Below the pieces are notes generated by a model. It was given only the letters and a program-made list of their open reading frames with translations. It did no database searches and was not told the DNA's origin. This document shows positions 14,806 to 32,362 of a DNA stretch of 64,000 nt, in pieces (within the stretch, counting starts at the first letter, position 1; every line of letters starts with the position of its first letter). A program made the translations under genes and the position numbers. Origin of the DNA: Ignavibacteria bacterium (GTDB lineage: Bacteria; Bacteroidota; Ignavibacteria; Kapaibacteriales; UBA4661); the NCBI GenBank assembly GCA_014654705.1, contig JACVZY010000111.1, positions 54,785 to 118,784 on the forward strand, written 5' to 3'.

Positions 14806-14848
14806 AGACTACCTAATCTCCCAACGCCTTACCTACCATTTCAGCAGT

Positions 14849-16096
14849 ATGAATGTTTCCAACACCGATTCTTCAGTAGCAGCACCGTCAAATCTTTCCG
14901 AGCGTTCACCGTGCATTTTGATTGTGGACGATATGATGGAAAATTTGCAGGCACTTCGGGGACGCTTGCGTTTGAAACATTACTCACTCAGTGAGGCAAC
15001 AAGCGGTTCGGAGGCACTTGACTATCTCCAAAAATGTATTGCGGATAATGCACCTTTGCCCGATCTCATTTTGCTGGACGTTCAGATGCCGGAAATGGAT
15101 GGATTTGAGGTGTGTCGCATTTTGAAGGCAGACGAAAACTTGCGCGAAATCCCAGTTATTTTCATTACCGCTCGGAGCGAAATGGATTTTATTGTGGAGG
15201 GTTTTAATGCCGGAGCAGTGGATTATGTCATCAAACCATTCCACGCAACCGAGCTTCTGACGCGCGTTAAGACACATCTGGATCTCAAGTTCTCACGCGA
15301 TTCGCTGCGCAATAACAATGAGCTTTTGGAAAAACTTAACCGTGAGAAGAGCGAATTCATGGGTATCGCAGCGCACGACCTCAAAAATCCTCTCGCCACA
15401 GTGCGCTGGCTTACAGACTCTCTCAAATCGGGCACACTTCCGCCGGAAAAATCTGCTGAAACATTGGACAACATAACGCTTGCCGTTGAAAGAATGTTTC
15501 GACTGGTTAAAAATCTTTTAGACGTAAATGCAATCGAAGAAGGTGCGGTACTATCTGGCAGCGATAACCACGACGATTCTCCTTTGCATCTTCCCGCCGA
15601 AAACATCAATCTTGTTTTTGCGGCTGCCGATGTACTGGCGAACTACGAAGCGCAGGCGGCGCAAAAGAGCATCAGCACAACCTTTGCCAATAACGCCCCG
15701 AATGCAACCATTCGCATCAACGCAGAAATTCTCAGCCAAATTTTGGACAATCTTATTTCCAATGCGTTGAAGTATTCGCCACGCGAAACAACCGTTTCAG
15801 TGAACGTGAGCGGCAATGAAGACTTCGCACGGGTTTCAGTTCAGGACGAAGGCGTAGGCATTCCGCCGGAAGAGGCTTCGCGGCTTTTTACTAAATTCGG
15901 CACGCTTTCGGCAAAGCCCACAGGTGGCGAGGATTCCACAGGCTTAGGGCTATTCATTGTTAAAAAGCTCACCGAAGCAGCTGGAGGAAGTGTACACTTT
16001 GCGCCAGCAGACAAACGAGGTTCAATCTTTAGTGTACAATTTCCGGTTGTAAAGCGAGTACGAAGCGCCGACAACGAAAGCGAGGATGACGAATGA
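14849..16096 (+). CDS. hybrid response-regulator/histidine kinase (REC-HisKA-HATPase)
   Basis: REC motifs ILIVDD...LILLDVQMPEMDGFEV, H-box FMGIAAHDLKNPL and G-box GLGLFIVKKL. Confidence 0.8.
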   Translation: MNVSNTDSSVAAPSNLSERSPCILIVDDMMENLQALRGRLRLKHYSLSEATSGSEALDYLQKCIADNAPLPDLILLDVQMPEMDGFEVCRILKADENLREIPVIFITARSEMDFIVEGFNAGAVDYVIKPFHATELLTRVKTHLDLKFSRDSLRNNNELLEKLNREKSEFMGIAAHDLKNPLATVRWLTDSLKSGTLPPEKSAETLDNITLAVERMFRLVKNLLDVNAIEEGAVLSGSDNHDDSPLHLPAENINLVFAAADVLANYEAQAAQKSISTTFANNAPNATIRINAEILSQILDNLISNALKYSPRETTVSVNVSGNEDFARVSVQDEGVGIPPEEASRLFTKFGTLSAKPTGGEDSTGLGLFIVKKLTEAAGGSVHFAPADKRGSIFSVQFPVVKRVRSADNESEDDE

Positions 16097-18411
16097 ATAT
16101 CTCGCCTCCCAATGCACCGTTAGCAGGCAAATCGTTCGGCGACTTCACAAGTCGCTTCACAGCTCGCTTCACGACGAAACTGACGCTAACAATTATGGCA
16201 GCGGCAATTCTACCGACCGCACTTGTTGGATATTTGTGCATTCAAACGGCTCTCCAAAGCCAAAAGAGTACGGCACGAGAATACTATTTCGCAACCGCCG
16301 AGCGCGTACAAGACAAGCTCATGCACCGCGTGGAAACAGCATCAAACCTGCTCTCCAGCGCTACGACTGTGCTTGCCAATCGCAAAATTGAGGAAGGCTC
16401 GGCGATAGAAGCAGTCCGCTCCATGCTTGCCACCACCGACGATGTGAATGCACTTGGCATATACGACACACAAGGGAATGCAGTGGAAATACTCGCCAAG
16501 CAGCGCAAAAACGCGCTTCCGAATAAACTACCTGAATCGTACCTACACAAAATAAGAGAATATAGCAAATCACAAATGGTCATAGTGAGTTCGCCGGAAG
16601 TACTTCTGGATGGAACTCTCCCTGTGCTGCCGATTTGCGCAGCATGGAAGTCGCAGTTGAATCAAAATGCACAAAACTCAACGTCTGCTTCGGCGATTAT
16701 CGGCTTCGTGGTTGTTGCGCTTGAAAGCGAGTACTTGTGCTCTCTGGCGGAAAATATTTCATCGCAAATGTTTGCCGGAGCGGGCGGACGAGTAACAATT
16801 GTAGATTCAACGCTCCGCGTACTGGCGCATACCGACCGCAAGCGCGTGGAGCGTGGTGAATCCTTGCGCGGCAAAGATATTTTTGCGACGACCACCTTCC
16901 AAAATGGTCTGTCGGAATACGTCGGCGCAGTGCAAGAATATACGGCTGCGAACGACGAACCAATGCTTGGTGTAGCACTCTTTATGCCGCTTTTGCGCAT
17001 GGTGATTGTTGTGGAAGAACCACAGTCGCTTGCCTATCGCGGACTGTCCGTCATGCGCCGCAATGCAATTCTCTGGACTTTGGGGTGCGCCTTTCTTGCG
17101 GGACTTGCGTGTATTATTTTGGCACGTCAATTCTCGAAACCGGTGCAACGTCTCGTGGAAGCGTCTTCTGTCCTTGCGCTGCAGGATTTCTCACTCAGGA
17201 TGCCCACTGAACGCACTGATGAATTTGGTCTGCTCTACGCCACTTTCAATCACGTTGCCACGGAGCTTGGTAAATATCAACGGCTCAACATTCATCAAAT
17301 CATTTCCGAGCGGCATAAACTCGAAACGGTAGTGCGGCAAGCAAACGACGGTATTCTGCTTTTGGACAGCGATCAAAAAATCGTGATTGTCAATAGCATT
17401 TTCGGCGCGTGGTTTGGTGTGGATAGTGCAAGCGAAGGAAGAAGTATTGATGTACTTACAACAAACGGTAGCGGCGTGGGCGAAGTGCGTAGTACCGTAC
17501 AAAAACTTGCCGCCAGCACTGACACAGTGAGTCATTGCGAGTTCACCGTCAAGACAAGCACGGAATTGAACGAGCGCATTGTTCGTGGCTCGCTCATTAA
17601 GATTTTCGCTGAAATACCTCGTCCAGATTCTCACCCCGAATATAATCCCGAAGGCGATTCGGCTCACACACAACCATCGCCAACGGCATTTCTTTTTCTA
17701 CTGAGAGATGTGACGCGCGAAGTAGAAACCGATAGGCTCAAAACGGAGCTTGTGGCAGTGGTGGCGCATGAGTTACGATCGCCGCTCAATAGTATTTATG
17801 GATTGGCAGAACTCATCGGGGAGGGGATTTTGGATGCAGAGGAGACGGTAGAATATGGGAGGACTATTGCTTCGCAGAGCCGTAAGCTAGCAGACATCAT
17901 CAATAAATTTCTTGACCTGAGCCGCTTGGAATCAGGCAAAACAGATATTCGGCACGTGCCGGTGAAGCTTGACGACGTTATTCGCACCGCAATAAAAACA
18001 AATGCCCCGCTTGCTGCTAAAAAATCCATGCGTATTGAAACTCGGCTTCCGGATGAGATTCTTACGGCAAAGGGCGACCCTGATTTGCTCGTACAAGTGT
18101 TGGTCAATCTTATCAGCAACGCAATCAAATACTCGCTGCCGGAAAAACCGATTATTGCAGAAATTCGTAACGAAAAAGGAGCTATTCGTGTTCTTGTTAC
18201 CGACGAAGGCTACGGAATCTCGGCTTCATCTCAAAAAAAACTCTTCACAAAATTTTTTCGTGCAAACGATGATAAGCGTATCAAAAATGAATCGGGCACC
18301 GGTCTGGGTCTGGCTTTTGTCAAACAGATTATTGAGCAGCACGGCGGCGAAGTAGGCGTAGAAAGCCGCTTGGGCGAAGGCTCGACGTTTTGGTTTCGGC
18401 TTCCGGTTTAA
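16093..18411 (+). CDS. sensor histidine kinase (extracytoplasmic sensor, HAMP, PAS-like, HisKA, HATPase)
   Basis: 4-bp ATGA overlap with the upstream gene. Two TM segments flank a loop of roughly 290 aa. H-box [12 protein letters not shown], plus [18 protein letters not shown]. Confidence 0.8.
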
Positions 18412-18458
18412 CTATTGTGGGACATTCTTTGTCATTCTAGGAGTTCAGGAAAATATTT

Positions 18459-19955
18459 ATGAGAATTCAGAAAACATACGACTTACCCTTGCTGGTTTTG
18501 TTATTTTCAATTGTGCTGGCGCTCCAAGTATTCGCCCAAGAAGACTACAATCTCAGTCCGGGCAAAAAAATCATTATCACCGATGCTACTTTCAAGCAAG
18601 GCAGTGCAGTCATCGAAGATTCTCAGCGCTCCGCGTTCGCACGTTTAGCGGAATTCTTGAAAAAACGTGAGCGGCTAAACATAGAAATCGGCGGTCATGC
18701 GGACAATATCGGGAGTGAGCAGCAAAACGTGGCGCTTTCGCTTGGAAGGGCAGAAGCGGTGAGAGAATTTTTGGTGATGAGCGGAATTGCTTCCAGCCGT
18801 ATGCGCACTCGAGGCTACGGCTCACAGTTGCCCATTGCAAGCAACAACGACGAAAGCGGTCGAACGAAAAATCGCCGCGTCGAAATTATCGGACTCAGCG
18901 CCTTTTCGGGAAAACTTCTTGCTTCACCCGACGGGAAAGCACTTCCACCGGAAGCACGAATCACCATGCTCAAACCGCCTGTGCGCGTCATGCCGGCATG
19001 GGAGGGCGATTGGCAAGAGGCAGTAATTGACCAGCCACTTTACGAAGCCTTTAAAGTCTCAACGCTTGAAGGCGCACGCGCAGACATTACCTTTCGGAAT
19101 AATAGCGTGCTTCACGTTTCGGACGATGCTTTGCTGATGATTTACGGTTTTGATTCTGCTCCAACCCTAGGTGGCGGAACTTCAAGCACGAAGGGGGCAG
19201 ATGCCATTGCAAAAAACATAGAGCTAACGAAAGGAAATCTTTCACTGAAACTCCGAGAAATGCGGGCGCAAGATACTTTTTCTATTCGCACAAAAGTCTC
19301 TGAAGTTGGCTTCAATACATCGTCGCAGAATGCTTCAGCAAAAGTGCGAGTGGATGCACGCGAACGCTCTATTATTTCCGTTCTGGAAGGTCGCGCGAAT
19401 GTAAAAGTAACAGCAAATGACCCTCGAACTGGACAAACTCTGGAAGTAGGCGAAGAATATGGCATTATCGTTGGGGATAGCTCAGAGGATTCCCGCACAC
19501 CGAAGCGATTACCAACCATGCCCGAACTACTTGAGCCTGCGGAGCGCATCACGCCTACCGAATCCGGAGTGGTGTCGTTTCGTTGGTCAAACGGAGGCTT
19601 AACTGCACGGCTTGAAATTGCTGCGAACATTGAATTTACGGAACTGGTCTATAACCAAATCCGCAAGACACAAAGCGCCGAGGTGAATTTACCCGAAGGA
19701 ACATACTTTATACGCCTAACAAGCATTGACAGCATCGGCTTTGAAAGCCGCAGCCGACTTCGTGGATTGGTCATTTCTCGTGAAGTCCCCGACAAGTCCG
19801 CATCAAAGCCTTTTCGCTTTCGGTATGTGGAGTTTGGTTTGCTTGTTCTGGCAGGAGGATGTTTTTGGGCGGGCTTGCTTTTCAACAAAAACATCTTGAA
19901 GCAAATTGCGGCGGGGCTTGTGGCGGTGAGTTTGGTGATGTTTTTGTTATTGTAG
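18459..19955 (+). CDS. OmpA-like / FecR-like domain protein with C-terminal TM anchor
   Basis: Signal peptide, then an OmpA_C-like motif (IGGHADNIGSEQQNVALSLGRAEAVREFL...NRRVEI). A FecR-like middle region follows, and the C-terminus has hydrophobic helices. Confidence 0.6.
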   Translation: MRIQKTYDLPLLVLLFSIVLALQVFAQEDYNLSPGKKIIITDATFKQGSAVIEDSQRSAFARLAEFLKKRERLNIEIGGHADNIGSEQQNVALSLGRAEAVREFLVMSGIASSRMRTRGYGSQLPIASNNDESGRTKNRRVEIIGLSAFSGKLLASPDGKALPPEARITMLKPPVRVMPAWEGDWQEAVIDQPLYEAFKVSTLEGARADITFRNNSVLHVSDDALLMIYGFDSAPTLGGGTSSTKGADAIAKNIELTKGNLSLKLREMRAQDTFSIRTKVSEVGFNTSSQNASAKVRVDARERSIISVLEGRANVKVTANDPRTGQTLEVGEEYGIIVGDSSEDSRTPKRLPTMPELLEPAERITPTESGVVSFRWSNGGLTARLEIAANIEFTELVYNQIRKTQSAEVNLPEGTYFIRLTSIDSIGFESRSRLRGLVISREVPDKSASKPFRFRYVEFGLLVLAGGCFWAGLLFNKNILKQIAAGLVAVSLVMFLLL

Positions 19956-20050: not shown

Positions 20051-21037
20051 TTAGCTGAGTGGTGCAACCACTTTCGCGCTTGGCTTCATGAGCGCTGCGC
20101 GTACCCATTTACCTTTTTCGTGAGCCATATTGCGTACAGCAAGGCGTTCTTTATTGCACGGTCCGTCGCCGTTCACGACGCGCATAAACTCGCTCCAGTC
20201 GGGTTCGGTGTATTCCCATTTGTTTGTTTCGGTGTTCTTGCGCAGAGCGGGGTCGGGAATGGTAAGCCCAAGTTCCCAAATTTTCGGAATGTACATATTC
20301 AGAAATTGCTGGCGCATATCATCATTGCTCGCAAGTTTGACTTTCCATTTCATAAGTTTTTCAGTATGGACAGACGCTTTATCGGGCGGACCAAAAAAGT
20401 GCATCATTGGCGACCACCAGCGATTAAGCGCTTCTTGGAGCATTTGACGCTGTACTTTTGTGCCTGTGGCAAGCGTAACGGCGTTTTCGTAGCCATACTT
20501 CAAATGGAAGGATTCTTCTTGACAAATGCGTTCCAATGCCCGACAGTAGGGTCCGTACGAACCTTTAGAGTTAATCACTTGATTCACGATAGCTCCCGCA
20601 TCCACAAGCCACGCAATAACAGCAGAATCTGCCCATGTTGGCGTAGGGTAGTTGAATACATTGGAATATTTTGATTTGCCGGAGATGAGATCATTGAGCA
20701 TATCTTCACGCGATTTTCCAAGCGTTTCAGCGGCATTGTAGAGAAGTTGGGCGTGTCCTACTTCATCCTGAACTTTTGCCAAAAGAGCCAGTTTCCGCTT
20801 GAAGCCGGGAGCACGGGTAATCCAGGTGCCTTCCGGTAGAGCACCTATAATCTCAGAGTGCGCATGTTGTTCTATCATCCGAATAAGCTGACGGCGATAC
20901 TCGCAAGGCATCCAGTCGTGCGGCTCGATTTTGTCGCCGCGCTCAATTTTTGCTTCAAATTCAGCGAGAAGTATTGGGTCGTCCTGATACTGCTCAGTCG
21001 AAGTTGGCATATCGCCAACAAATGCGCTTCCGTACAT
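20051..21037 (-). CDS. paaA: 1,2-phenylacetyl-CoA epoxidase subunit A
   Basis: Ferritin-like di-iron ligand motifs ([26 protein letters not shown]), at the typical length of 328 aa. Confidence 0.85.
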
Positions 21038-21176
21038 AGTAGTTGCGTTCTGAAAGGTTGATAAATACTTGTGTTTGTTTGTACGTTGGTAAACACAAAA
21101 TTACAGAAAAAAGTTCAATTGCGTTCACTTTTTTCGCTTTAAGCGAATACGCAAGCGCAAAAATGCCTTTTACATT

Positions 21177-21815
21177 TTATTTCAATGTCCGCGTAGTATT
21201 TTTCACATAACGCAAACGGTAGTACCCAAGCGGGGTGAACTGCGTTGGCGAAGCGGCTGCATCTTTGTAGAGATTCACAAATTGAACTTTCACGTAATTT
21301 CCAGAGCGTGTCTTCAGAACCAAGGTTTTTTGTGGATTCGGAATAATAGTACGCTGCGAACTATTATAGTTGAACATGCCTTTTCCGAAAAGGTCAATCG
21401 AAACAATGCGCCGAGACGAGGCGGTGTCCTCTGTTTGGAGCTGTGAATCCATGGGCGCTGTTGTCAGGAGGTCAAAAGTAGAGTCCACAACAATTCCAAT
21501 TGTTTTTCCGTTCGGATTTACGTTACCTGAATTAAGCAAAATATCTACCGAGCGTGAAAATTCATTGAGAAAAGGCAAGCGTATATCCCACTCATCGGTT
21601 GCAGCACGACTGGCAGGTACGACGGAATCTCGGTCAAAAGAAAAGTAAATAACGGAAAGGGAATCGGGGCGTAGATTCGAGACAATGAGCGGCGTAAGAG
21701 TGCCTTGCGTACCATTTGTAACGGAATTTTGCGTGCAGCAACTTGCAACAAAAGCAATCAGACAAAGTGCCAGTGCCAGTGAGAATGTGCGAAGGGGTGA
21801 AACGTGGATTTGCAT
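21177..21815 (-). CDS. lipoprotein, HmuY-like
   Basis: Lipobox VASC. The pattern YFSF...WDIRLPF...NSGNVNPNG...YVKVQFVNLY resembles the HmuY family. Confidence 0.45.
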   Translation of the reverse strand: MQIHVSPLRTFSLALALCLIAFVASCCTQNSVTNGTQGTLTPLIVSNLRPDSLSVIYFSFDRDSVVPASRAATDEWDIRLPFLNEFSRSVDILLNSGNVNPNGKTIGIVVDSTFDLLTTAPMDSQLQTEDTASSRRIVSIDLFGKGMFNYNSSQRTIIPNPQKTLVLKTRSGNYVKVQFVNLYKDAAASPTQFTPLGYYRLRYVKNTTRTLK

Positions 21816-21944
21816 TGTGGGAAGCGAACTGTGTTAAAAAACATTGGTTAATTGTAAAAACACACGCAATGTACGTGGAGTTACACAAAAGACCAAGTTT
21901 TTTTTTTCGCTTATAGACTTCTATTATCGGTAGGAAGTCTTATT

Positions 21945-22448
21945 TTAAGGCACTTCCAAAGCAAATATTTGCCCAAAACTCTCGAATGTGTACATCTGCT
22001 CGTCGTACTGCACGAGGTACTCTGCAAATTGTAAATATGCACTACGAGTGAAACGTGCCTCGGTCTGCATACCCTTCGGTGTTTGTAGTGGTACATAGAC
22101 AATATTTTCCTTGCTCAAGCGCGGCGTATGCTCTTCGTTGATGGGAACACGTGAACCGAGGATATTCAGCGTACACCAAAGATTTCCGTCAGCATCGGCA
22201 CTAACACTAATGACAGAATACGGGACATCATCAACATCAATTTTAACATTTTCAACAGGAGTTGTCAGGCAGTAACAGCCATCAGCCTGTTTATTCAAAA
22301 TGGTATAGAAAAGCGCTACCAAATACTCCCGCTCTATCGGCTCATCTCGATAATACCACATCCCATTGCAATCTATACGAATAGCGGGTCGCTGATTTTC
22401 ATCATGGAGATATCTCCCCACAGACTGGTGTAGTTCGCTAGTCATCAT
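21945..22448 (-). CDS. DUF1285-like protein
   Basis: IRIDCNGMWYYRDEPIEREYLVALFYTILNKQADGCYCLTTPVENVKIDVDDVPY matches the DUF1285 pattern. Its start overlaps the rep stop (TAATG). Confidence 0.6.
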   Translation of the reverse strand: MMTSELHQSVGRYLHDENQRPAIRIDCNGMWYYRDEPIEREYLVALFYTILNKQADGCYCLTTPVENVKIDVDDVPYSVISVSADADGNLWCTLNILGSRVPINEEHTPRLSKENIVYVPLQTPKGMQTEARFTRSAYLQFAEYLVQYDEQMYTFESFGQIFALEVP

Positions 22449-23503
22449 TACAGAGTGACGTTAGGCATTGTTCGAGACTTGCTTGATTTTGGAGCACTTT
22501 TTCGCGGAGAACGCTCAACGTCCGTAGGCTTTATCATTTCGTCGAGGATTTTATTGCGAAATTGCCGCAAAAGAACTTCCGTTGTTTTATTTTCATAATC
22601 GGGTGCTTCAGGGCTTTGATATTCTTTTACAAAGTCCGGCAGCTCCTCAAATGCCTGACGCATAATCTTCGCTTGCAATTCCTCTCCGAGCCGATTAAAA
22701 AAGAGGTCATACTCAGCAAGCGACCGAATTTCGGTAACAATTTCGAGGCTTCCGTCGTTGAAGGGTAGAGCAATCTCTGTTTTGCGGTTAATGCAGAATT
22801 TTATTGCATCAATTTTTCGTTGAAATCTTTCATAGCGCACTGTCACAAAGAGATCGGACAATTCATTGATTTCATTCACTGCTTTTTTGATAACCTTTTC
22901 ATTGAGCCGCGCAAACGCCGGGTACTCGTCAGCATCTACGCCCATCAATTCGCGGAACTCACCGACTGAGATAAGCGGAGTTTCACCGTAAGAGCGCTCA
23001 AAATCGAAATAATCAAGGCAGAGTTCGTACAATGCAAGCGCGTGTTTGGACTGAAATTTATTTTGGAGAGAGAGGCTTATACGCGCATACATTCTTGGAT
23101 TGCGCAAGCGTTCTTTCAAAAACGGACTAAAAGCATATGTGAGAACACCTTGCTTAATCACAGCACCAGCTAAGAGCGGGAAAACCCCCCATTCACTTTT
23201 GTCCTTGCGCAGGATGTTCCAGCGCACAGCCGTTGTGGTGAGCTTTTCCAGTGCTTCTTTCAAATACGCATCGTCGTTACTGTGGTAGTCCAGCATTTCC
23301 ACAAGGTCGCGGACACGAATTTGGTAACGGTCGCTATTACCCAACTCATCAAACGCACGGGCAAGGAGAACATTCCATGCGCGGCGCTGTAAAAGAGTAA
23401 TACTGTTTGTAATCTGCACAGCCGAGCTATGCTTCATTACCTCACGTTTGCGCTTCGAAAGCCGAATCGGGGCGCTCGACATAATTGGCGTAACAGCTTC
23501 CAT
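22448..23503 (-). CDS. plasmid-type replication initiator (Rep_3 family-like)
   Basis: The pattern VQITNSITLLQRRAWNVLL...YAFSPFLKERL...SKHALALYELCLDY...ISVGEFRELMG...NEKVIKKAVNEINELSDLFV is typical of iteron-binding Rep proteins. An iteron array lies directly upstream. Confidence 0.8.
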   Translation of the reverse strand: MEAVTPIMSSAPIRLSKRKREVMKHSSAVQITNSITLLQRRAWNVLLARAFDELGNSDRYQIRVRDLVEMLDYHSNDDAYLKEALEKLTTTAVRWNILRKDKSEWGVFPLLAGAVIKQGVLTYAFSPFLKERLRNPRMYARISLSLQNKFQSKHALALYELCLDYFDFERSYGETPLISVGEFRELMGVDADEYPAFARLNEKVIKKAVNEINELSDLFVTVRYERFQRKIDAIKFCINRKTEIALPFNDGSLEIVTEIRSLAEYDLFFNRLGEELQAKIMRQAFEELPDFVKEYQSPEAPDYENKTTEVLLRQFRNKILDEMIKPTDVERSPRKSAPKSSKSRTMPNVTL

Positions 23504-23530
23504 AACATTTATTTAGCTAAATACAAACAA

Positions 23531-23539
23531 TGTGGATAA
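23531..23539 (-). promoter_or_regulatory. perfect DnaA box (TTATCCACA on minus strand)
   Basis: The plus strand reads TGTGGATAA, 28 bp upstream of the rep start codon and 79 bp from the first iteron. Confidence 0.6.
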
Positions 23540-23617
23540 CTTTTTTTCTTGGGAGTGTAATGTACACAATCATCGGAGTTAAGAAAAGAAAAAGGTTGTG
23601 GGGCATACATTTTCTCC

Positions 23618-24273
23618 CCTGTAAACGGGGATGTTTGTGCAAAATCGAGATCCGACTGTGCCGAATTCAGATAATTTTTTCCTGTAAATGGGGATGATAC
23701 CCATAGGCATTTATTCGACTGAAAAAGCGGTTTACCTTCTTGACGCTGCTGGCATAGCTTAATATTTACGCAAGTGCTATTCACGAAACAGGAAGTATCC
23801 TGTAAATGGGGATTTTTCACTGGATATTACATGGGAATAAAATTGTGCACGCGAATAATTCCCTGTAAATGGGGATATGCAAAGGTACTGCTCCAAATCT
23901 ATAGCCTGTAAACGGGGATTTTTCGTGTCCACAATATCCTGTAAATGGGGATGTGAAATCAAAAAAATCTCCTGTAAATGGGGAGGAATCGAAATATTTG
24001 AATTTCATAGCCTGTAAACGGGGAGGATAATGTACTTAGACATCCTGTAAATGGGGATGCAAGCAAGGGTTTTCCACAAAATCAAGTGTAAAATCTCATT
24101 TCAAAGCACACTGTATCTTTTCAAAAAGTACTTATCCCCGTTTACAGGCTCAGAGTCGGGACACTTTTCTCCTGTATTTGGTGATTTTACAACCTGCGAA
24201 CGATGCTTTTTCATCCTGAAAATGGGGCTGTTCACTCCTGAAAACGGGGATATTATAGCCTGTAAACGTGTAT
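23618..24273 (+). repeat. iteron array, 15-bp unit CCTGTAAAYGGGGAT (about 14 copies)
   Basis: Direct copies with 0-1 mismatch start at 23618, 23681, 23799, 23862, 23905, 23938, 23971, 24011 and 24044. One inverted perfect copy lies at 24134-24148. Degenerate copies start at 24171, 24215, 24237 and 24259. Confidence 0.85.
24070..24078 (+). promoter_or_regulatory. DnaA-box-like site TTTTCCACA (8/9 match)
   Basis: One mismatch to TTATCCACA, located between the direct and inverted iterons. Confidence 0.35.
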
Positions 24274-24289
24274 TTTCAAACACATAAGC

Positions 24290-24478
24290 ACATATTTTAC
24301 AACAACTTTGAAGCACCTAAAACTCTTAAAACAGGGAAAACTTTAAAAACTCTTAAATCCAATCATAAAATGCAATCCACAATTCAGACTTGCGTAAAAC
24401 GTTTTTTCAAGACGTATTTTCCCCGTACATTTGTAAGAATGACTACCGTTTCTTTATTTAATCACGATAAAACCTGTT
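24290..24478. other. AT-rich tract, candidate DNA-unwinding element of the origin
   Basis: Visibly AT-rich stretch just past the last iteron. It contains the 12-mer direct repeat AAAACTCTTAAA at 24319 and 24346. Confidence 0.35.
24426..24433 (+). promoter_or_regulatory. candidate -7 promoter element TACATTTG
   Basis: Perfect TAnnTTTG match 46 bp upstream of the ATG at 24479. Confidence 0.3.
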
Positions 24479-25237
24479 ATGACCACATTTCTCTTTAGAA
24501 CACTTTGTATCTTTATAACATCATTTACAATAGCAGCATGTTCTTCCTGTAACAACAAGAATCAAACTGCACAAACTAACACACCAACTAGCGGCGGTGT
24601 GCAGAGCGGCATTCAAACTCCAAACGCAACATCAGCTTCAGTAAAAGCAAATGATGCGACTAGCGGTAAAAGCGGCATGGAAAAATTCATAACAAAAGAG
24701 GCTAAAGACCCCATTGCTTTTGATGTGCGAGGGGATAAACTAGAATCTATTACAAATGATACGGAACAAGGTATCAGTTTTGGTCCTCCGCGTACATATC
24801 AAGCAATACCCTACTCAACGCTACCAATGAATGATATTTCACGAAAATTTACCGAATACTCGTCGCCGGAAATTACAATTTCTCCTCTCCATTCGTACAG
24901 TAATGGAAAAAATAGTCTTGTCGTATCATTGGTAAAGTTTAGCACTGCCCAGACGCTAGAACAGTACATTGAAAAATACGAGGCATTGAATAAGCAGCGC
25001 TTTACTCCGGCAACAATTACAACGACCTCGTTCAAAAACCGTGAAATTCCGATGACTCAGTTTTTTATACAAGAATCTGAGAGCGGTATTTTCCGAATTG
25101 TTTTTCCGGCAACGAAAAAAAATCAACTTCTGCAATTTGACTACACTATTCGGCGCAATAGTATTCAAGCTGATATGGAACGGATAGAACCTTCTATTGG
25201 TTCTATTGTACGACTTATTGCAGCTGCAAACCCATAA
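24479..25237 (+). CDS. lipoprotein, unknown function (paralog of 25887-26504)
   Basis: Lipobox IAAC. The C-terminal half aligns with the downstream paralog (LLQFDYTI / MMQCDYII; IEPSIGSIV / VESSIGSIF). Confidence 0.6.
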   Translation: MTTFLFRTLCIFITSFTIAACSSCNNKNQTAQTNTPTSGGVQSGIQTPNATSASVKANDATSGKSGMEKFITKEAKDPIAFDVRGDKLESITNDTEQGISFGPPRTYQAIPYSTLPMNDISRKFTEYSSPEITISPLHSYSNGKNSLVVSLVKFSTAQTLEQYIEKYEALNKQRFTPATITTTSFKNREIPMTQFFIQESESGIFRIVFPATKKNQLLQFDYTIRRNSIQADMERIEPSIGSIVRLIAAANP

Positions 25238-25268
25238 ATCTTGTGTTCTTAAATATCATTGTTGAACC

Positions 25269-25691
25269 ATGAAAGTTATTCAATCCCTCGACCCACGTAT
25301 TACCCGTGCGCTATTAAGCGAACAGCCTGAGATGTCCCACCTCACAAGCAATGAGCTTTTCGAGACATATGAAGTTTTTCATCAAGCAAAGACCGGAGCT
25401 CGTCATATTCATGTCGGCTCAGTCCATGCGCCAAATGCTGAAATGGCTTATTTATTCGCCAAAGAACAGTTTGGGCGACGTATGACAACAACAAGTCTCT
25501 GGGTTGCGCGAACAACAGATATTTTTACGACCAACGAAGATGCTGAATTGTACACAACAGCAAATGCTCCAGAAAAAGAATATCGTAATGCCACTATTTG
25601 GAAGGTGCGCGATAAAATTGATCGCTTCAAAAAAGAGCATTCCAGCGACTTACCTTCTCAAGAAACTGTATCTTCTCAAGAACAAGAATAA
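25269..25691 (+). CDS. paaB: 1,2-phenylacetyl-CoA epoxidase subunit B (with N- and C-terminal extensions)
   Basis: Core sequence YEVFHQAKTGARHIHVGSVHAPNAEMAYLFAKEQFGRR...LWV matches PaaB. At 140 aa it looks longer than the typical PaaB as I recall it. Confidence 0.75.
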   Translation: MKVIQSLDPRITRALLSEQPEMSHLTSNELFETYEVFHQAKTGARHIHVGSVHAPNAEMAYLFAKEQFGRRMTTTSLWVARTTDIFTTNEDAELYTTANAPEKEYRNATIWKVRDKIDRFKKEHSSDLPSQETVSSQEQE

Positions 25692-25712
25692 TTCCCTTCT
25701 TTCGGAGACGTT

Positions 25713-25856
25713 ATGATATCAATATCTATCGATATCTACCTTAGACGATTCCGAACAACAGAAGAATTACCTTTCGATGAAGCCCTATTCTATACCCCTG
25801 AAGAATATTTGCTGCGGGAACAGGCAGCGCTCAATCCCCAAGAATATCAGCTTTAA
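25713..25856 (+). pseudogene. 47-aa ORF resembling only the N-terminus of Uma2-family nucleases (possible remnant)
   Basis: GGAGA lies 5 nt upstream of the ATG. YTPEEYLLREQAALNPQEY resembles the Uma2 N-terminal motif T.EEYL..E....K.EY, and the ORF stops right after it. Confidence 0.2.
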
Positions 25857-25886
25857 ACTTGAGGTTTAATTACAACAGCAATAATT

Positions 25887-26504
25887 ATGAGCCAAATCAG
25901 AATTTTTATATTGTTATTTTGTATTTTTCTAACAAACTGCGGCAAAACAACCAAACAGAAAGAGCCTACTAGCACAGTAGAAAGAATGACATTCACGGTG
26001 AACCGTCAGTTACTCAAAGACTCGCTCAATATTATTGACGAGAAGTTGAGCGTATCTATCCCTAAGTCGTGGAAACCTCTTCCCGATAGCTTAAAAAGTT
26101 CACTAACTTCAAAAGTCGAAACCTTCAATGCAAGCAATGACTCATTAGCAATTCAACTCAATATACACTCGGTATATGTTCAGCCGGATAGCAAAGCAAG
26201 TCTAGTTATTTCTCGTCTTAGTTTTCCTAAAAATGATTCAACGGAATCGCTTCAACGCAAACACTACACTAAACAGATGAAAACAGGTATTGATAGTACA
26301 TCACTTGGAATTGCTGAGTTCAGAAAAGACGGTATATTCATAACACAATATATGATTCGGACCCAGCAAAGTGTTTCTTTCAAACTTCTTTTCAAAGCGC
26401 ATAAAAGCATGATGCAATGCGATTATATTATACCAACAAACGTTTTCCAACAAGAAATCAGGGCTGTTGAATCGTCTATCGGTTCGATATTTATTTCTCA
26501 ATAG
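25887..26504 (+). CDS. lipoprotein, unknown function (paralog of 24479-25237)
   Basis: Lipobox LTNC, with C-terminal similarity to the upstream paralog. Confidence 0.6.
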   Translation: MSQIRIFILLFCIFLTNCGKTTKQKEPTSTVERMTFTVNRQLLKDSLNIIDEKLSVSIPKSWKPLPDSLKSSLTSKVETFNASNDSLAIQLNIHSVYVQPDSKASLVISRLSFPKNDSTESLQRKHYTKQMKTGIDSTSLGIAEFRKDGIFITQYMIRTQQSVSFKLLFKAHKSMMQCDYIIPTNVFQQEIRAVESSIGSIFISQ

Positions 26505-26532
26505 ATTTATTCACTTATATTTAGGAGTTGAT

Positions 26533-26835
26533 ATGAAACATCTTCTCGTGCGCTCTGGCGCAGTAATAGCATTTTGTTTCCTTACACTTATTTGTTCTGG
26601 CTGCTATACGCAATCATTCTTAGTAGGCGGCGGAGCAAAAGGTACACAAGAAGAGACTGCGCAAACGTGGTTTGTTGCTTTTGGATTAGCAAATGTCAGT
26701 AATACAAATATCTCCGCAATGGCAAAAGGTGCAAGTAGCTACACTATTGTAACACAACGCACTTTTGTTGACGGTTTGATTTATAGTATTTTAAATGGTC
26801 TGGTAGGACCAGAAACAGTAGTCGTGCGTCGGTAG
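26533..26835 (+). CDS. Bor/Iss-family lipoprotein
   Basis: AGGAG lies 6 nt upstream of the ATG at 26533. Lipobox CSGC, followed by WFVAFGL...AKGASSY...TQRTFVDGLI, which resembles lambda Bor (FFVSGIGQ...TQQTFVNGLLGFITLG). Confidence 0.6.
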   Translation: MKHLLVRSGAVIAFCFLTLICSGCYTQSFLVGGGAKGTQEETAQTWFVAFGLANVSNTNISAMAKGASSYTIVTQRTFVDGLIYSILNGLVGPETVVVRR

Positions 26836-26880
26836 TGTATTGTAAAAATTCATTATTTCTAGCAATTATTTTCTAATCCA

Positions 26881-27213
26881 ATGAAAAATCAACATTTCAA
26901 AAGCACCTTTTTTGTGCTGTTGCTGTGCAGTGTCTTAACAATCGGTCTATCTGGTTGCTTTACCCAAAAAATCGTCGTTGGTAATGGTGCTCCGTCTCGT
27001 AGTCAAACTGAAGCAGCTCAAAACGAAGAAACCACAAAAGCATGGTTTTTTGTTTTTGGTCTTATCCCCGGACAAGGTCCGATAGATCTTGACAAAATGG
27101 CAAAAGGTGCATCAAATTATACTGCAGTATATGAAGAAACATTTCTTGATGGCTTAATTGGCTATATAACACTGAACCTTGTAACGCCACGTACAATAAC
27201 GGTTAAACGATAA
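26881..27213 (+). CDS. Bor/Iss-family lipoprotein (tandem paralog)
   Basis: Lipobox LSGC, followed by WFFVFGLIP...AKGASNY...EETFLDGLIGYITLNLVTP. Confidence 0.6.
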   Translation: MKNQHFKSTFFVLLLCSVLTIGLSGCFTQKIVVGNGAPSRSQTEAAQNEETTKAWFFVFGLIPGQGPIDLDKMAKGASNYTAVYEETFLDGLIGYITLNLVTPRTITVKR

Positions 27214-27272
27214 GACTTTTTAGCTCAACAGCCCTGATTTATTGTTATTTTGTTCTATTTTTTATTGTCATC

Positions 27273-28040
27273 ATGCCAATCAAAGACACTTCTCGCACAG
27301 CCATCAAAGACCTTCTGTTCCGAATGGCTGATGATTGCTTAATTCTTGGTCATCGTAACTCTGAGTGGGTCGGCATCGGACCGGTCTTAGAGGAAGATAT
27401 TGCCTTTGCTTCTATTGCACAGGATAAACTCGGTCATGCGCTCTCGCTCTACAGCATTTTACATGAACACTTAGGAGAGCCGGATGCCGATACGCTTGCC
27501 TTTATGCGTCCCGAAGGACAATTCAAATGTTGTCATTTAGTTGAAATTCCGACGCAAGAATATGACATAGCCCTCGTGCGGCATTTCCTCTTCGATACTG
27601 CTGACCGCCTTCGTTTTGAAATGCTTGTCGGTTCTTCGTTTGAGCCACTTGCGCAGCTTGCCCGCAAAATCAAAGGTGAAATAACATACCACACCATGCA
27701 CGCAAATGCTTTTATTCGTCAATTATCTCGTGGAAGCGAAGAGGCGCATTTCAGAATGCAATCGGCATTGAATGAGGTATATCCGCTTGCTCTGGGAATT
27801 TTCGAGCCATCTGAATTTGAAGAAGTGCTTGCGCAAGAGGGAATTTTTGCTGGAGAAGCATTGCTAGAAAAGAGTTGGTTAGAAACAATTACACCGATTC
27901 TTGAACAAGCCGGATTGACTGTAAGCGCCAATGCAGAAGCCGCTCTTGGCGGGAGAAAAGGGTATCATACCGAACATTTATCGCCACTTTTGGAAGAAAT
28001 GTCGGAGGTCTTTGCTGTTGACCCCACGGCAGAGTGGTAA
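27273..28040 (+). CDS. paaC: 1,2-phenylacetyl-CoA epoxidase subunit C
   Basis: LFRMADDCLILGHRNSEWVG...AQDKLGHALSLY is typical of PaaC. Directly followed by paaD. Confidence 0.8.
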   Translation: MPIKDTSRTAIKDLLFRMADDCLILGHRNSEWVGIGPVLEEDIAFASIAQDKLGHALSLYSILHEHLGEPDADTLAFMRPEGQFKCCHLVEIPTQEYDIALVRHFLFDTADRLRFEMLVGSSFEPLAQLARKIKGEITYHTMHANAFIRQLSRGSEEAHFRMQSALNEVYPLALGIFEPSEFEEVLAQEGIFAGEALLEKSWLETITPILEQAGLTVSANAEAALGGRKGYHTEHLSPLLEEMSEVFAVDPTAEW

Positions 28041-28060
28041 AACCATTTCAAGAAAATACT

Positions 28061-28561
28061 ATGATTACCCAAAATGAAGTACAGGAGGCAGCCATCTGGC
28101 AGGCACTCCATGACGTAGCCGACCCCGAAATACCACGTCTTTCGGTGGTTGATTTAGGAGTAATCACTCACGTCAAGGTCGATGACCAAAACAAAGCCTC
28201 TATTACGATGACACCAACGTTTTCTGGGTGTCCGGCAATACATTATATGCAAGATGCTATACGCGAACGTGTCGCATCAATGCCATTTTCAGAGGTCGAA
28301 GTAAAAGTTTCATTTGAGGAACCATGGAATTCTAACAAAATTTCAGAACGGGGAAGAGCAATTTTACATGAATCAGGATTTGCACCGCCACCCAAACATG
28401 ATGGATATATCGAACTCAGCGTCTTAGAAGATGTCCCGTGCCCATATTGCGGAAGTCATCATACAACTCTTCAATCTCCCTTTGGTCCGACCCTCTGCCG
28501 TTCAATTCATTATTGTAATGCTTGCTCACAGGCATTTGAACAATTTAAACCTGTTGCATAA
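28061..28561 (+). CDS. paaD: phenylacetate-CoA oxygenase subunit PaaD (DUF59/MIP18 domain + C-terminal Cys cluster)
   Basis: DVADPEIPRLSVVDLGVI...MTPTFSGCPA together with CPYCGS...HYCNACSQ. ATG at 28061 is preferred over the GTG at 28034. Confidence 0.8.
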   Translation: MITQNEVQEAAIWQALHDVADPEIPRLSVVDLGVITHVKVDDQNKASITMTPTFSGCPAIHYMQDAIRERVASMPFSEVEVKVSFEEPWNSNKISERGRAILHESGFAPPPKHDGYIELSVLEDVPCPYCGSHHTTLQSPFGPTLCRSIHYCNACSQAFEQFKPVA

Positions 28562-28907
28562 ACCGAAAAGAATCCCCAGACGTAGGCGTCAAGGTTCATT
28601 ATAACGAAGAAATAAAAAACCTTTCAGCCGAAAGTTGATAAAAAATTGCACTATTAATAATAATTTGATGTTTTTTTTACACTTTTAGCAAAAAATATCC
28701 TTTTATTCTGTGTCAATTTCTAATGCCTTAAAAAGTCTATCGCTTTCGTACAAATTAAAATAACAACAATACAAAATGGCGATTTTTGCTTATTTAAGTC
28801 ATTATTGAGAAAATCATTGCAGTGCTGATACGATAGTAAAGGGTCAATTGTTTCATGTGAAATTTAGTTATGTGCCGTAAAGCAAGTCTTCTTCACAAAT
28901 TGACCTC

Positions 28908-28936
28908 TTGACAAAGTGCAGGTAATTGAGTAATTT
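28908..28936 (+). promoter_or_regulatory. sigma70-like promoter candidate TTGACA-N17-TAATTT
   Basis: Perfect -35 hexamer, 17-bp spacer and a weak -10, about 200 bp upstream of the susC-like ATG. Confidence 0.25.
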
Positions 28937-29007
28937 GTGCAACTAAAATTTCTTTGAAAAAAATTTGGTGATAAATGTGTGCGGAAATTTTCCGGTACCA
29001 ATCATTT

Positions 29008-29015
29008 TAATTTTG
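29008..29015 (+). promoter_or_regulatory. candidate -7 promoter element TAATTTTG
   Basis: Perfect TAnnTTTG match 125 bp upstream of the ATG at 29140. Confidence 0.25.
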
Positions 29016-29139
29016 TACATCCTTACGGTTTATCTGTGTGTAACAGACGTGCTGAGGTAGTGCTTCGAGAGTGCTGCTTCGAGAGGCAAATAGCGACCAC
29101 AGAAACCATATTTTTTCATTTCAATCAAGGAGTTCTTTT

Positions 29140-32295: not shown

Positions 32296-32362
32296 TCAAT
32301 GTTCTGCCAACTTCGGTTGATTTTCCAATAAATTAAAAATGAATCATTAAGGATTCTCAATT

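What the first reader, a model, noticed from the sequence alone, without database searches (positions are those of the whole stretch)
21945..24478. Complete iteron-type (plasmid-like) replication origin embedded among core metabolic genes
Seen in sequence: a 351-aa Rep_3-like initiator (22448-23503, minus strand). Directly upstream of its start lie a perfect DnaA box (TGTGGATAA, 23531-23539) and about 14 copies of the 15-bp CCTGTAAAYGGGGAT spread over 656 bp. A second 8/9 DnaA box (24070-24078) and an AT-rich tract with a 12-mer direct repeat (24319 and 24346) follow. Established knowledge: Rep plus iterons plus DnaA box plus AT-rich DUE is the canonical theta-replicating plasmid oriV layout (R6K, F, pPS10, RK2). 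Unusual here: no par, mob, tra, integrase or transposase genes sit next to it, and the same window carries proBA, cysEK, dut and tex. Gene orientation diverges locally from this locus (minus strand 20051-23503, plus strand 24479-40465), although 1-19955 is also plus strand. Inference: either this replicon is a chromid, secondary chromosome or megaplasmid that fires from this origin, or it is a domesticated or decaying integrated plasmid origin.
Basis: partly seen in the sequence, partly recalled or inferred. Interest (0 to 1): 0.7.

Follow-up and report, generated by a model that had tools for sequence, protein, structure and literature searches.

The report
Plasmid-type replication origin kept in Kapabacteria
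A complete plasmid-style replication start site (an initiator gene plus its repeated binding sites) is real, intact and conserved among housekeeping genes of an uncultured Kapabacteria lineage, but base-composition patterns suggest that its very large DNA molecule does not normally start copying there.

Summary
ORF 22448-23503(-) is a Rep_3 initiator (Pfam WH1 and WH2). Upstream lie 14 helically phased 15-bp iterons, two DnaA boxes and an AT-rich tract with tandem 9-mers. The module is not decaying: Rep dN/dS is 0.028. Against a relative whose spacers are only 44% identical, the iterons, the mid-array DnaA box and the 9-mer element stay 82-88% identical. The same module is vertically inherited, with shared synteny, across Candidatus Kapabacteria metagenome genomes whose Rep is 53-97% identical. 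The closest plasmid relatives (36-43% identity) are initiators of Rhodobacteraceae megaplasmids and chromids. The replicon is large: the window's contig is 140.6 kb, and a sister-lineage Rep lies on two contigs above 1 Mb (longest 1,579,175 bp). None of nine Kapabacteria-type loci shows the GC-skew minimum that three plasmid controls and several other relatives show at their rep gene. My best reading (0.40) is a captured plasmid or chromid origin, kept functional by selection inside a megabase replicon but not its main bidirectional origin. The main rival (0.30) is the working, perhaps unidirectional, origin of a large secondary chromosome. The full megabase contig or read-depth profiles would decide. 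I file it as a new member of a known kind, of moderate interest.

The parts
22448..23503 (-). rep: 351-aa Rep_3 family initiator (WH1 and WH2, plus a C-terminal extension of about 110 aa)
   Evidence: Pfam Rep3_N 8.6e-19 and Rep3_C 3.9e-16. In the AlphaFold model only residues about 150-240 are confident; that part matches mini-F RepE structures (Foldseek prob 1.00, about 90 residues at 1.4-1.7 A). dN/dS is 0.028 against L007.
21945..22448 (-). DUF1285 gene, overlapping the rep stop codon by one base (TAATG); a conserved partner of rep in this clade
   Evidence: Pfam DUF1285_N 1.1e-16. It lies next to rep in L007, L009, L010, L049-L051 and L137. It matches PDB entries 2re3 and 2ra9.
23504..23617 (-). 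rep leader and promoter region, with a perfect DnaA box (23531-23539) and a block conserved in L007 and L008
   Evidence: The rep-proximal box is shared with L007 but not with L008.
23618..24058 (+). Proximal iteron array: nine direct copies of CCTGTAAAYGGGGA(T/G), spaced 63, 118, 63, 43, 33, 33, 40 and 33 bp
   Evidence: Helical phasing. Identity is 96% to L007 and 88% to L008, against spacer identity of 74% and 44%.
24070..24078 (+). Mid-array DnaA box TTTTCCACA (TGTGGAAAA in rep orientation)
   Evidence: The same 9-mer lies inside the arrays of L007, L008, L009, L049, L135 and L137.
24134..24148 (-). The single inverted iteron
   Evidence: An inverted copy at the equivalent place is found in L007, L008, L047, L049 and L133.
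24171..24273 (+). Distal array of four degenerate iterons (1-3 mismatches), spaced 44, 22 and 22 bp
   Evidence: The same positions are conserved in L007.
24319..24357 (-).
   Evidence: It is conserved at the rep-distal end of the iteron array in L007, L008, L009, L010 and L049, and in distant Rep loci L013, L026, L028 and L037. Identity is 97% and 82% against spacer identity of 74% and 44%.
24274..24478 (.). AT-rich intergenic tract (65-72% AT) between the last iteron and the next gene
20051..21815 (-). Context: HmuY-like gene and PaaA, co-oriented downstream of rep-DUF1285; anciently linked neighbours
   Evidence: Pfam. The order Rep-(DUF1285)-HmuY-PaaA is found in L007, L009 and L135.

Best explanation
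This is a genuine, still-functional Rep_3/iteron replication module. It is of plasmid or chromid ancestry and became part of a megabase-scale replicon in the ancestor of this Candidatus Kapabacteria lineage.

Inferred mechanism, by homology with mini-F RepE, pPS10 RepA and RK2 TrfA: Rep monomers load on the 13 helically phased direct iterons. DnaA binds the conserved mid-array box. The adjacent tandem 9-mers in the AT-rich tract are melted and one strand is held by Rep, after which the host helicase and replisome enter. The large number of iterons and the inverted copy would keep firing rare, by handcuffing and autorepression.

Shown here: the parts, their phasing, their purifying selection, their vertical inheritance and the large replicon size.

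Inferred here: the module lies inside a replichore and is copied mostly by forks that start elsewhere. On this reading it acts as an auxiliary, conditional or low-frequency origin left by an old plasmid or chromid cointegration, not as the replicon's main bidirectional origin.
For: - Family membership: Rep_3 WH1+WH2 by Pfam and a fold match to RepE.
- Iterons: 14 copies against 2 expected, phased at 10.7 bp.
- Selection: Rep dN/dS is 0.028, the same as the enzyme PaaA at 0.023. Iterons, DUE and DnaA boxes are 82-88% identical to L008 where spacers are 44% identical. The DUE 9-mers and iteron arrays recur in relatives with Rep identity of 53-97%.
- Vertical inheritance: orthologue identities between the window and L009 are PaaA 90%, Rep 74%, HmuY 70%, OmpA 60% and DUF1285 45%. 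L135 keeps the inferred ancestral order Rep, HmuY, PaaA, PaaB, PaaC.
- Host-like composition: Rep GC3 is 0.47.
- Large replicon: the window's contig is 140,600 bp. Sister-lineage Rep P0241 lies on 12 contigs, two above 1 Mb, the longest 1,579,175 bp. A single-contig 2.84 Mb Kapabacteriaceae genome is published (PMC7648391).
- Not the strand-switch point: 0 of 9 Kapabacteria-type loci have a cumulative-skew minimum at the module, against 3 of 3 plasmid controls within 1.5 kb of rep. GC3 skew split by gene strand is uniform across the locus in L133, and of the opposite sign in the window.
- Local inversion: GC3 skew in the window suggests an inverted block of about 24 kb around the module.
Against: - A silent or rarely used origin should decay, and the strength of selection on Rep, iterons, DnaA box and DUE is hard to explain without regular use.
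- No bacterium is known that keeps a second, plasmid-type origin inside a chromosome over genus- or family-level divergence. The Vibrio cholerae fusions are recent (PMC6284228).
- Divergent plasmid-like ParA and ParB genes lie 6-16 kb from rep in relatives L049, L137 and L140. This fits an autonomous replicon.
- Skew was measured on flanks of only 10-40 kb, in a region with frequent local inversions.
- I could not show that dnaA/oriC lies on the same replicon.
Confidence: 0.4

Rival explanations
1. The module is the working vegetative origin of a large secondary chromosome or chromid of these Kapabacteria (at least 1.58 Mb in one lineage). The main chromosome, with dnaA/oriC, is a separate molecule. 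The missing skew inflection would come from unidirectional replication, as in most Pseudoalteromonas chromids, and from frequent inversions next to the origin.
For: - All canonical origin parts are under selection.
- The closest plasmid Reps (36-43% identity) run 0.1-1.26 Mb megaplasmids and chromids of Paracoccus, Ruegeria and Tritonibacter.
- Divergent ParA and ParB-like genes lie 6-16 kb from rep in L049, L137 and L140.
- Neighbourhood genes are mostly transport, regulation and niche functions. There is no tRNA, rRNA, ribosomal-protein or dnaA gene in the window or the Kapabacteria-type loci examined.
- Unidirectional chromids show no skew sign change and are documented (PMC7858055).
- The flanks nearest the module mostly have positive skew on the rep-sense strand.
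Against: - Skew on the rep-sense strand is negative over the outer 40 kb of the window but positive in L133. The module therefore has no fixed orientation relative to fork direction.
- A 1.58 Mb contig is about half of a typical Kapabacteria genome. One family member is a single 2.84 Mb contig that is 97% complete.
[quoted passage not shown] A unidirectional replicon of at least 1.58 Mb would run against that trend.
- No parAB lies within the 64 kb window, whereas it is adjacent to rep in the plasmid relatives.
Confidence: 0.3
2. The module is the sole origin of the main chromosome. A plasmid-type Rep/iteron origin would have replaced oriC, with DnaA kept only as an accessory factor.
For: - The sister-lineage module lies on a contig of at least 1.58 Mb.
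- The module is strongly conserved and includes DnaA boxes.
- Partition genes lie in the neighbourhood in relatives, as is common near chromosomal origins.
- No dnaA was found in any held sequence. That sequence covers only about 1.7 Mb, from many organisms.
Against: - There is no skew or gene-orientation switch at the locus in 9 of 9 loci, while controls show one.
- To my knowledge no free-living bacterium does this, so the prior is very low.
- The presence or absence of dnaA and oriC elsewhere in the genome could not be tested.
Confidence: 0.05
3. The module has a domesticated, non-replicative role. The chromosomal Rep and its iteron array would serve as an exclusion or incompatibility device against incoming plasmids of the same family (by titration and handcuffing), or as a DNA-binding regulator or architectural site.
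For: - The module is conserved without any replication signature in base composition.
- Fourteen iterons is an unusually large array, of the kind that inhibits firing in plasmids. This rests on established knowledge of P1 incA and F incC.
- Related Rep/iteron replicons are abundant in metagenomes: 1267 homologues, many on short contigs.
Against: Selection also preserves the DUE 9-mers, the AT-rich tract and the DnaA box. These matter for origin opening, not for binding or titration alone.
Confidence: 0.12
4. The module is a decaying remnant of an integrated plasmid or mobile element.
For: - The module interrupts the usual PaaABCD operon layout.
- A low-GC3 island lies next to it at 24.5-33.7 kb.
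- The L133/L143 lineage has more degenerate iterons, and a transposase-like fragment in place of DUF1285.
Against: - Rep dN/dS is 0.028, and the ORF is intact in every relative examined.
- The cis elements are conserved well above spacer level.
- There is no integrase, att repeat or tRNA flank.
- The module is inherited vertically with its neighbours.
Confidence: 0.02

Closest known systems
Rep_3-type ('RepB-type') replicons of Rhodobacteraceae megaplasmids and chromids, e.g. Ruegeria sp. TM1040 822 kb megaplasmid and Paracoccus 0.65-0.89 Mb replicons
   Same: These are the nearest Rep homologues on cultured-organism replicons (36-39% identity over about 80% of the protein). They are large replicons with plasmid-type initiators and host-like genes.
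   Different: In Ruegeria, parAB sits directly beside rep and the cumulative skew minimum is at rep. Here there is no par gene within 64 kb and no skew minimum. A DUF1285 partner gene is present, and the host belongs to Bacteroidota/Kapabacteria.
Classical iteron plasmids: mini-F RepE/ori2, pPS10 RepA, R6K pi, RK2 TrfA/oriV
   Same: They share a WH1-WH2 initiator, with a fold match to RepE. They also share phased direct iterons, DnaA box(es), and an AT-rich DUE with short repeats that Rep can bind as single-stranded DNA (PDB 8ac8 and 8aan; PMC10602881 listed).
   Different: There is no sequence-level PDB hit. The Rep here has a C-terminal extension of about 110 aa. There are 14 iterons in one 656-bp array. 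No inverted-repeat operator was seen at the rep promoter. The setting is a replicon of at least 140 kb, and probably megabase scale.
Vibrio cholerae Chr2 origin (RctB/ori2) and naturally fused single-chromosome strains NSCV1 and NSCV2
   Same: This is a plasmid-derived iteron origin on a housekeeping replicon. In the fused strains, ori2 lies inside a chromosome that also has oriC, and it is either active or silenced (PMC6284228).
   Different: RctB did not appear among the homologues found for this Rep, and from my own knowledge it is not a Rep_3 protein. From my own knowledge, no 39-mers, crtS or GATC-methylation logic is evident here. The Vibrio fusions are recent strain-level events, whereas this module persists across Rep divergence down to 53%.
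Pseudoalteromonas chromid ori2/RepA
   Same: A plasmid-derived origin drives a large secondary chromosome. Most of these replicate unidirectionally, so the skew does not switch sign at the origin (PMC7858055).
   Different: That RepA has no detectable relatives outside the genus. parA2B2 and tus lie adjacent to ori2 there. The orientation of the module relative to skew is not constant here.
Captured extrachromosomal origins in archaeal multi-origin chromosomes (Sulfolobus oriC3/WhiP). Recalled from my own knowledge, not checked here.
   Same: The concept is the same: an origin and its initiator acquired from an extrachromosomal element and kept in a chromosome.
   Different: That is a different domain of life with different initiator families. 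Activity there is demonstrated by experiment, and here it is not.

Membership tests
Rep_3 iteron-type theta replicon (initiator plus oriV) | Initiator with Rep_3 WH1 and WH2 winged-helix domains | tested here: met
   Pfam PF01051 at 68.7 bits and PF21205 at 59.5 bits, both far above their cut-offs. Foldseek's top 45 hits are all RepE or Rep structures, but only the WH2 part of the model is confident.
Rep_3 iteron-type theta replicon (initiator plus oriV) | Array of directly repeated, helically phased iterons next to rep | tested here: met
   14 copies against 2 expected. Period 10.7 bp, R=0.85, 0 of 2000 random sets. Arrays of 9-15 copies (5 detected in L135) recur in the relatives with Rep identity of 63-97%.
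Rep_3 iteron-type theta replicon (initiator plus oriV) | DnaA box(es) within the origin | tested here: met
   One perfect and one 8/9 box. The mid-array box is conserved 9/9 in L007 and L008, and the same 9-mer lies in the arrays of L009, L049, L135 and L137. None was detected in L133/L143.
Rep_3 iteron-type theta replicon (initiator plus oriV) | AT-rich DNA-unwinding element with short repeats at one end of the iterons | tested here: met
   A 65-72% AT tract. Tandem 9-mers are conserved across the clade and in distant Rep loci.
Rep_3 iteron-type theta replicon (initiator plus oriV) | Inverted (half-)iteron operator overlapping the rep promoter, for autorepression | tested here: inconclusive
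   The only inverted iteron lies about 630 bp upstream of rep. No iteron-like inverted repeat was found between 23504 and 23617. The promoter itself is not mapped.
Rep_3 iteron-type theta replicon (initiator plus oriV) | Rep plus ori fragment replicates autonomously; Rep binds the iterons | not testable with these tools
   This needs cloning and replication assays, plus EMSA or ChIP.
Chromid or secondary-chromosome origin | Plasmid-type replication system on a replicon with host-like composition that carries core genes | tested here: met
   Rep GC3 is 0.47, against 0.45-0.55 for most window genes. proBA, cysEK, dut and tex are on the same contig. Whether those genes are unique or essential was not tested.
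Chromid or secondary-chromosome origin | Replicon physically separate from the main chromosome that carries dnaA/oriC | not testable with these tools
   Only contigs are available: 140.6 kb for the window, and up to 1,579,175 bp in a sister lineage.
Chromid or secondary-chromosome origin | Dedicated parAB next to the origin | tested here: not met
   None is present in the 64 kb window. Divergent ParA and ParB-like genes lie 6-16 kb from rep in L049, L137 and L140.
Chromid or secondary-chromosome origin | Leading/lagging-strand switch (cumulative GC-skew minimum) at the origin, for bidirectional replicons | tested here: not met
   There is no minimum at the locus in the window or in 0 of 9 Kapabacteria-type loci. 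Plasmid controls score 3 of 3 within 1.5 kb of rep.
Integrated mobile element or plasmid remnant | Integrase, att repeats or tRNA at the borders; variable presence among close relatives; gene decay | tested here: not met
   There is no integrase, transposase or tRNA and no flanking direct repeats. The module is present with shared synteny in all clade members sampled. Rep dN/dS is 0.028.
Chromosomal oriC | Cluster of DnaA boxes, usually near dnaA or dnaN | tested here: not met
   Only two boxes lie in the region, and there is no window-wide enrichment. There is no dnaA homologue in the window or in any held locus.

The most novel reading that the evidence does not exclude
A free-living bacterial lineage (Candidatus Kapabacteria) has stably kept a captured plasmid-type Rep_3/iteron origin in its megabase chromosome, over genus- to family-level divergence, and actively uses it. 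It would work either alongside oriC, making a naturally multi-origin bacterial chromosome analogous to archaeal captured origins, or in place of oriC. The co-conserved DUF1285 protein would be a new accessory factor.
Probability: 0.2. Interest if true: 0.85.

Novelty: new member of a known kind. Interest (0 to 1): 0.5.

Why it matters
Plasmid-derived origins are known on chromids, and in very recent chromosome fusions. Here an intact Rep_3/iteron origin is under selection as strong as that on a neighbouring enzyme. It persists across a whole uncultured lineage on a replicon of at least 1.58 Mb, yet it leaves no replication signature in base composition.

One possibility is a first large secondary chromosome for the Kapabacteria/Ignavibacteria branch of Bacteroidota, perhaps unidirectional and larger than any known. 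The other is a long-lived second origin inside a bacterial chromosome, which would bear on how replicons fuse and how multi-origin chromosomes arise. The locus also gives a defined 2.5 kb fragment that could seed genetic tools for an uncultured group. It links DUF1285, a protein of unknown function, to replication.

Tried and rejected
- **Literature.** Searches for a Rep-type origin, chromid or dnaA status in Kapabacteria, Ignavibacteria or Poribacteria found nothing specific.
- **dnaA on the same replicon.** This is uninformative for the whole genome.
- **Fetching the 1.58 Mb contig.** Looking up ten neighbouring proteins gave the same 12 contigs and nothing longer.
- **Tex-anchored search for a closed genome.** It found no Kapabacteria-type contig above 1 Mb.
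- **PaaA-anchored loci.** Other Bacteroidota keep PaaABCD contiguous with no Rep nearby. The module is therefore clade-specific, but these loci gave no 'empty site' within the clade.
- **Structure.** The PDB sequence search with the Rep profile had no hit. The AlphaFold model from 20 similar sequences is poor for WH1 (mean pLDDT 60).
- **Other scans.** The Rfam and tRNA scans were empty, and Tandem Repeats Finder reported only one small array outside the module, at 12157-12185.
- **DUF1285 as a general plasmid replication accessory.** Rejected: in PLSDB it occurs only on large alphaproteobacterial replicons, not beside rep.
- **DnaA boxes as evidence on their own.** Rejected because of the window-wide counts. 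They are accepted only because of conservation in relatives.


Full report
**Observation.**
- ORF 22448-23503(-) encodes 351 aa. It hits Pfam Rep3_N (WH1, 68.7 bits) and Rep3_C (WH2, 59.5 bits), both far above their curated cut-offs.
- The 15-mer CCTGTAAAYGGGGAT, with up to 3 mismatches, occurs 14 times in the 64 kb window. All copies lie between 23618 and 24273. Thirteen are direct and one is inverted (24134-24148). Shuffles give 2.0 on average, and none of 100 reaches 14.
- The direct copies sit on one face of the helix: best period 10.7 bp, R=0.85, 0 of 2000 random sets.
- A perfect DnaA box lies at 23531-23539 and an 8/9 box at 24070-24078. DnaA boxes are not enriched across the window (16 against 12.6 expected), so their weight comes from conservation (see below).
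- The 12-mer repeat at 24319 and 24346 lies in a 65-72% AT tract.
- Pfam scans of about 48 ORFs confirm proB, proA, cysE, cysK, tex and dut. They find no par, mob, tra, integrase or transposase gene. There is no tRNA and no Rfam hit.

**The initiator.** Besides the Pfam hits, an AlphaFold model was built from 20 homologues. It is confident only over residues about 150-240. That part matches mini-F RepE structures in all of the top 45 Foldseek hits, with about 90 residues at 1.4-1.7 A. The hits include Rep complexes with iteron dsDNA and DUE ssDNA. A sequence profile finds no PDB entry. The family has a conserved C-terminal extension of about 110 aa. NCBIfam gives only a sub-threshold RepM match.

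**The cis elements are under selection.**
- Relatives with Rep 63-97% identical (L007, L008, L009, L010, L047, L049, L133/L143, L135) carry the same iteron consensus, ATCCCCRTTT(A/T)C(A/G)GG, upstream of rep. Most have 9-15 copies and L135 has five detected; the more distant L137 (Rep 53%) showed no match to this consensus. Most arrays include an inverted copy and at least one DnaA box.
- Between the window and L008, spacers are 44% identical. The iterons are 88%, the 9-mer element 82% and the DnaA boxes 83% identical. Against L007 the figures are 74%, 96%, 97% and 100%.
They always lie on the same strand relative to rep, at the rep-distal end of the array. The motif recurs in L007-L010 and L049. 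It also recurs in distant Rep loci from Poribacteria, Chryseolinea and Rhodothermales genome bins. This is what a DNA-unwinding element looks like.
- Rep itself has dN/dS 0.028 against L007 at dS 0.44. The neighbouring enzyme PaaA has 0.023. The module is therefore not decaying.

**Who carries it, and how it is inherited.**
- The exact Rep occurs on seven metagenome contigs, the longest 143 kb. One is from NCBI MAG GCA_016786935.1, whose PaaA is labelled Candidatus Kapabacteria bacterium. The window's own contig is 140,600 bp.
- Genome-collection relatives are Ignavibacteria and Candidatus Kapaibacterium bins (70-97% identity). Many Poribacteria, some Desulfobulbia-like bins and Caulobacterales are more distant at 40-56%, including a Litorimonas plasmid.
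- Synteny shows vertical descent. The window and L007 are colinear over at least 16 genes. The window and L009 share Rep-DUF1285-HmuY-PaaA-OmpA-kinases, with identities of 74, 45, 70, 90, 60 and 50-59%.
- Most Bacteroidota keep PaaA-B-C-D contiguous without any Rep. L135 (Rep 63%) has iterons, Rep, HmuY, PaaA, a 342-aa gene, PaaB and PaaC, all co-oriented. The window's divergent layout follows from that order by one inversion of the block from the iterons to PaaA.
- L133/L143 keep PaaA, the response regulator, Tex, glutathione peroxidase and SusC within 10 kb of rep, but rearranged. The neighbourhood is thus old, with repeated inversions that end beside the module.

**Size and nature of the replicon.**
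- The sister-lineage Rep P0241 (313 aa, in the same 90% cluster as P0019, which is 68% identical to the window Rep) lies on 12 contigs. Eight are 50-200 kb, two are 0.2-1 Mb and two exceed 1 Mb; the longest is 1,579,175 bp. Its neighbours PaaA, ParA, a ParB-like protein, Tex and others lie on the same contigs.
- Published Kapabacteria genomes include a single 2.84 Mb contig that is 97% complete (PMC7648391) and a closed circular MAG (PMC9426551). It is unknown whether either carries the module.
- The replicon is therefore megabase scale and not an ordinary plasmid. Whether it is the main chromosome or a large second one could not be determined. I could not fetch the long contig or search the genome for dnaA. 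No dnaA lies in the window or in any held locus.

- For real plasmids carrying homologous Reps, the cumulative GC-skew minimum in 5-10 kb flanks lies within 1.5 kb of rep. These are the Litorimonas plasmid L039, the Ruegeria TM1040 megaplasmid L138 and a P. aeruginosa plasmid L139. Their left flanks are negative and their right flanks positive.
- Several Poribacteria and Caulobacterales loci behave the same way, with the minimum within about 2.5 kb of rep.
- None of nine Kapabacteria-type loci does (L001, L007, L009, L010, L047, L049, L133, L135, L137). L001 and L007 are close relatives, so about eight are independent.
- When GC3 skew is split by gene strand, L133 is positive on both sides and for both gene orientations. 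The window is negative or neutral on both sides. The module thus sits inside a replichore, and in either orientation.
- In the window, skew on the + strand is positive on both sides at the 64 kb scale. GC3 skew is negative only from about 10.8 to 34.5 kb. This pattern fits an inverted block of about 24 kb around the module. A difference in glutathione peroxidase/Tex orientation between the window and L143 fits a breakpoint near 34.5 kb.
- Gene orientation does not diverge consistently from the module either.

**Partition genes and DUF1285.**
- In plasmid relatives, parAB lies directly beside rep. The window has none in 64 kb.
- L049, L140 and L137 have a generic ParA with a weak ParB-like or small partner, 6-16 kb from rep. 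The ParB-like protein scores 31 bits on TIGR00180, against a cut-off of 58.
- A DUF1285 gene accompanies rep throughout the clade. It overlaps the rep stop codon in the window and is convergent with rep in L137.
- In PLSDB, DUF1285 occurs only on large alphaproteobacterial replicons and not beside rep. Its role is unknown.

**Interpretation.** Two facts pull in opposite directions. Every part of a working iteron origin is under strong purifying selection. Yet base composition says forks normally pass through the locus and do not start there, on a replicon of at least 1.58 Mb.
- Best reading (0.40): a captured plasmid or chromid origin, kept functional inside a megabase replicon and firing rarely or conditionally. 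The mechanism is inferred by homology: Rep on phased iterons, DnaA at the conserved box, and melting and strand capture of the 9-mer DUE.
- Main rival (0.30): the working origin of a large secondary chromosome. The missing inflection would come from unidirectional replication, which is known for Pseudoalteromonas chromids (PMC7858055), and from local inversions. Against this, the orientation of the module relative to skew is inconsistent.
- Other readings: sole origin of the main chromosome (0.05), a non-replicative domesticated role such as plasmid exclusion (0.12), and decay (0.02).

**Comparison with known systems.** The module meets the sequence-level criteria of the Rep_3/iteron family. 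Its closest relatives on cultured-organism replicons are initiators of Rhodobacteraceae megaplasmids and chromids, at 36-39% identity. It fails two features usual for chromid origins: adjacent parAB and a skew inflection. The nearest precedent for a plasmid-type origin inside a chromosome is the naturally fused V. cholerae strains, where ori2 is active or silenced (PMC6284228). Those are recent events with an unrelated initiator. I file this as a new member of a known kind, of moderate interest. The unresolved tension leaves about a 0.2 chance of something much more unusual.

Noticed in passing
window 20051-21037(-) versus 25269-28561(+); L135 3422-9561: The phenylacetyl-CoA epoxidase-like operon is split. 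PaaA lies on one side of the origin module, and PaaB, PaaC and PaaD lie on the other side in divergent orientation. Most Bacteroidota keep PaaABCD contiguous. L135 preserves Rep, HmuY, PaaA, PaaB and PaaC in one direction, so the window layout follows from one inversion.
   Followed up: yes
window 24479-33733: This is a low-GC3 island (0.27-0.40, against 0.45-0.55 elsewhere) directly beyond the AT-rich end of the origin. It holds a 252-aa protein with no family match, PaaB, two Bor-like lipoprotein genes, PaaC, PaaD and a SusC/SusD pair. These genes also diverge faster than Rep between the window and L008.
   Followed up: partly
window about 10.8-34.5 kb: Third-position GC skew has the opposite sign to both outer parts of the window, as expected for an inverted block. 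The block is roughly centred on the rep/iteron module (centre about 22.6 kb). The boundaries are uncertain by a few kb, and the left one would fall inside proBA.
   Followed up: partly
window 21945-22448(-); L049 10127-10612; L137 10978-11415: A DUF1285 gene is consistently next to rep in this clade. It overlaps the rep stop codon here and is convergent with rep in L137. It evolves faster than Rep (45% against 74% identity to L009; dN/dS 0.14). It may be a new accessory of this replicon family. It is not plasmid-linked in PLSDB.
   Followed up: partly
L016 and L021 (Candidatus Poribacteria MAG IRC4_bin_27, contigs of 92 kb and 129 kb): One Poribacteria genome bin has two homologous Rep loci with different iteron sequences (ATGAGAGTTTATGG x7 and TGAACGTTTATGGG x6). 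This suggests two compatible replicons. Many Poribacteria bins carry this Rep family on 30-145 kb contigs, and several of them have a skew minimum near rep.
   Followed up: partly
L137 4276-9095: In a relative with Rep 53% identical, an ImuB-like (IMS) gene and a 1101-aa DnaE2-like polymerase gene lie directly upstream of the origin region, with ParA 8 kb away.
   Followed up: no
L133/L143, about 850 bp upstream of rep; L143 11130-11579: This is the lineage found on the >1 Mb contigs. Its iterons are more degenerate, it has no match to the DnaA box or the 9-mer element, and it has a transposase-like HTH fragment where DUF1285 sits elsewhere. The origin may be diverging or weakening there.
   Followed up: partly
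window 28-9523: There are four consecutive MacB/FtsX-type permease paralogues on the + strand. One of them carries an AMPK1_CBM/CBM48 domain.
   Followed up: no
window 41295-42943(-): A type III polyketide synthase lies next to an ICMT-family methyltransferase. This looks like a small lipid or phenolic biosynthesis pair.
   Followed up: no
window 23540-23617: A sequence block between the first iteron and the rep start (…TTTCTTTTCTTAAC…GTACATTACACT… in rep orientation) is conserved in L007 and L008, although the surrounding spacers have diverged. It may be the rep promoter or operator, or a host-factor site.
   Followed up: no
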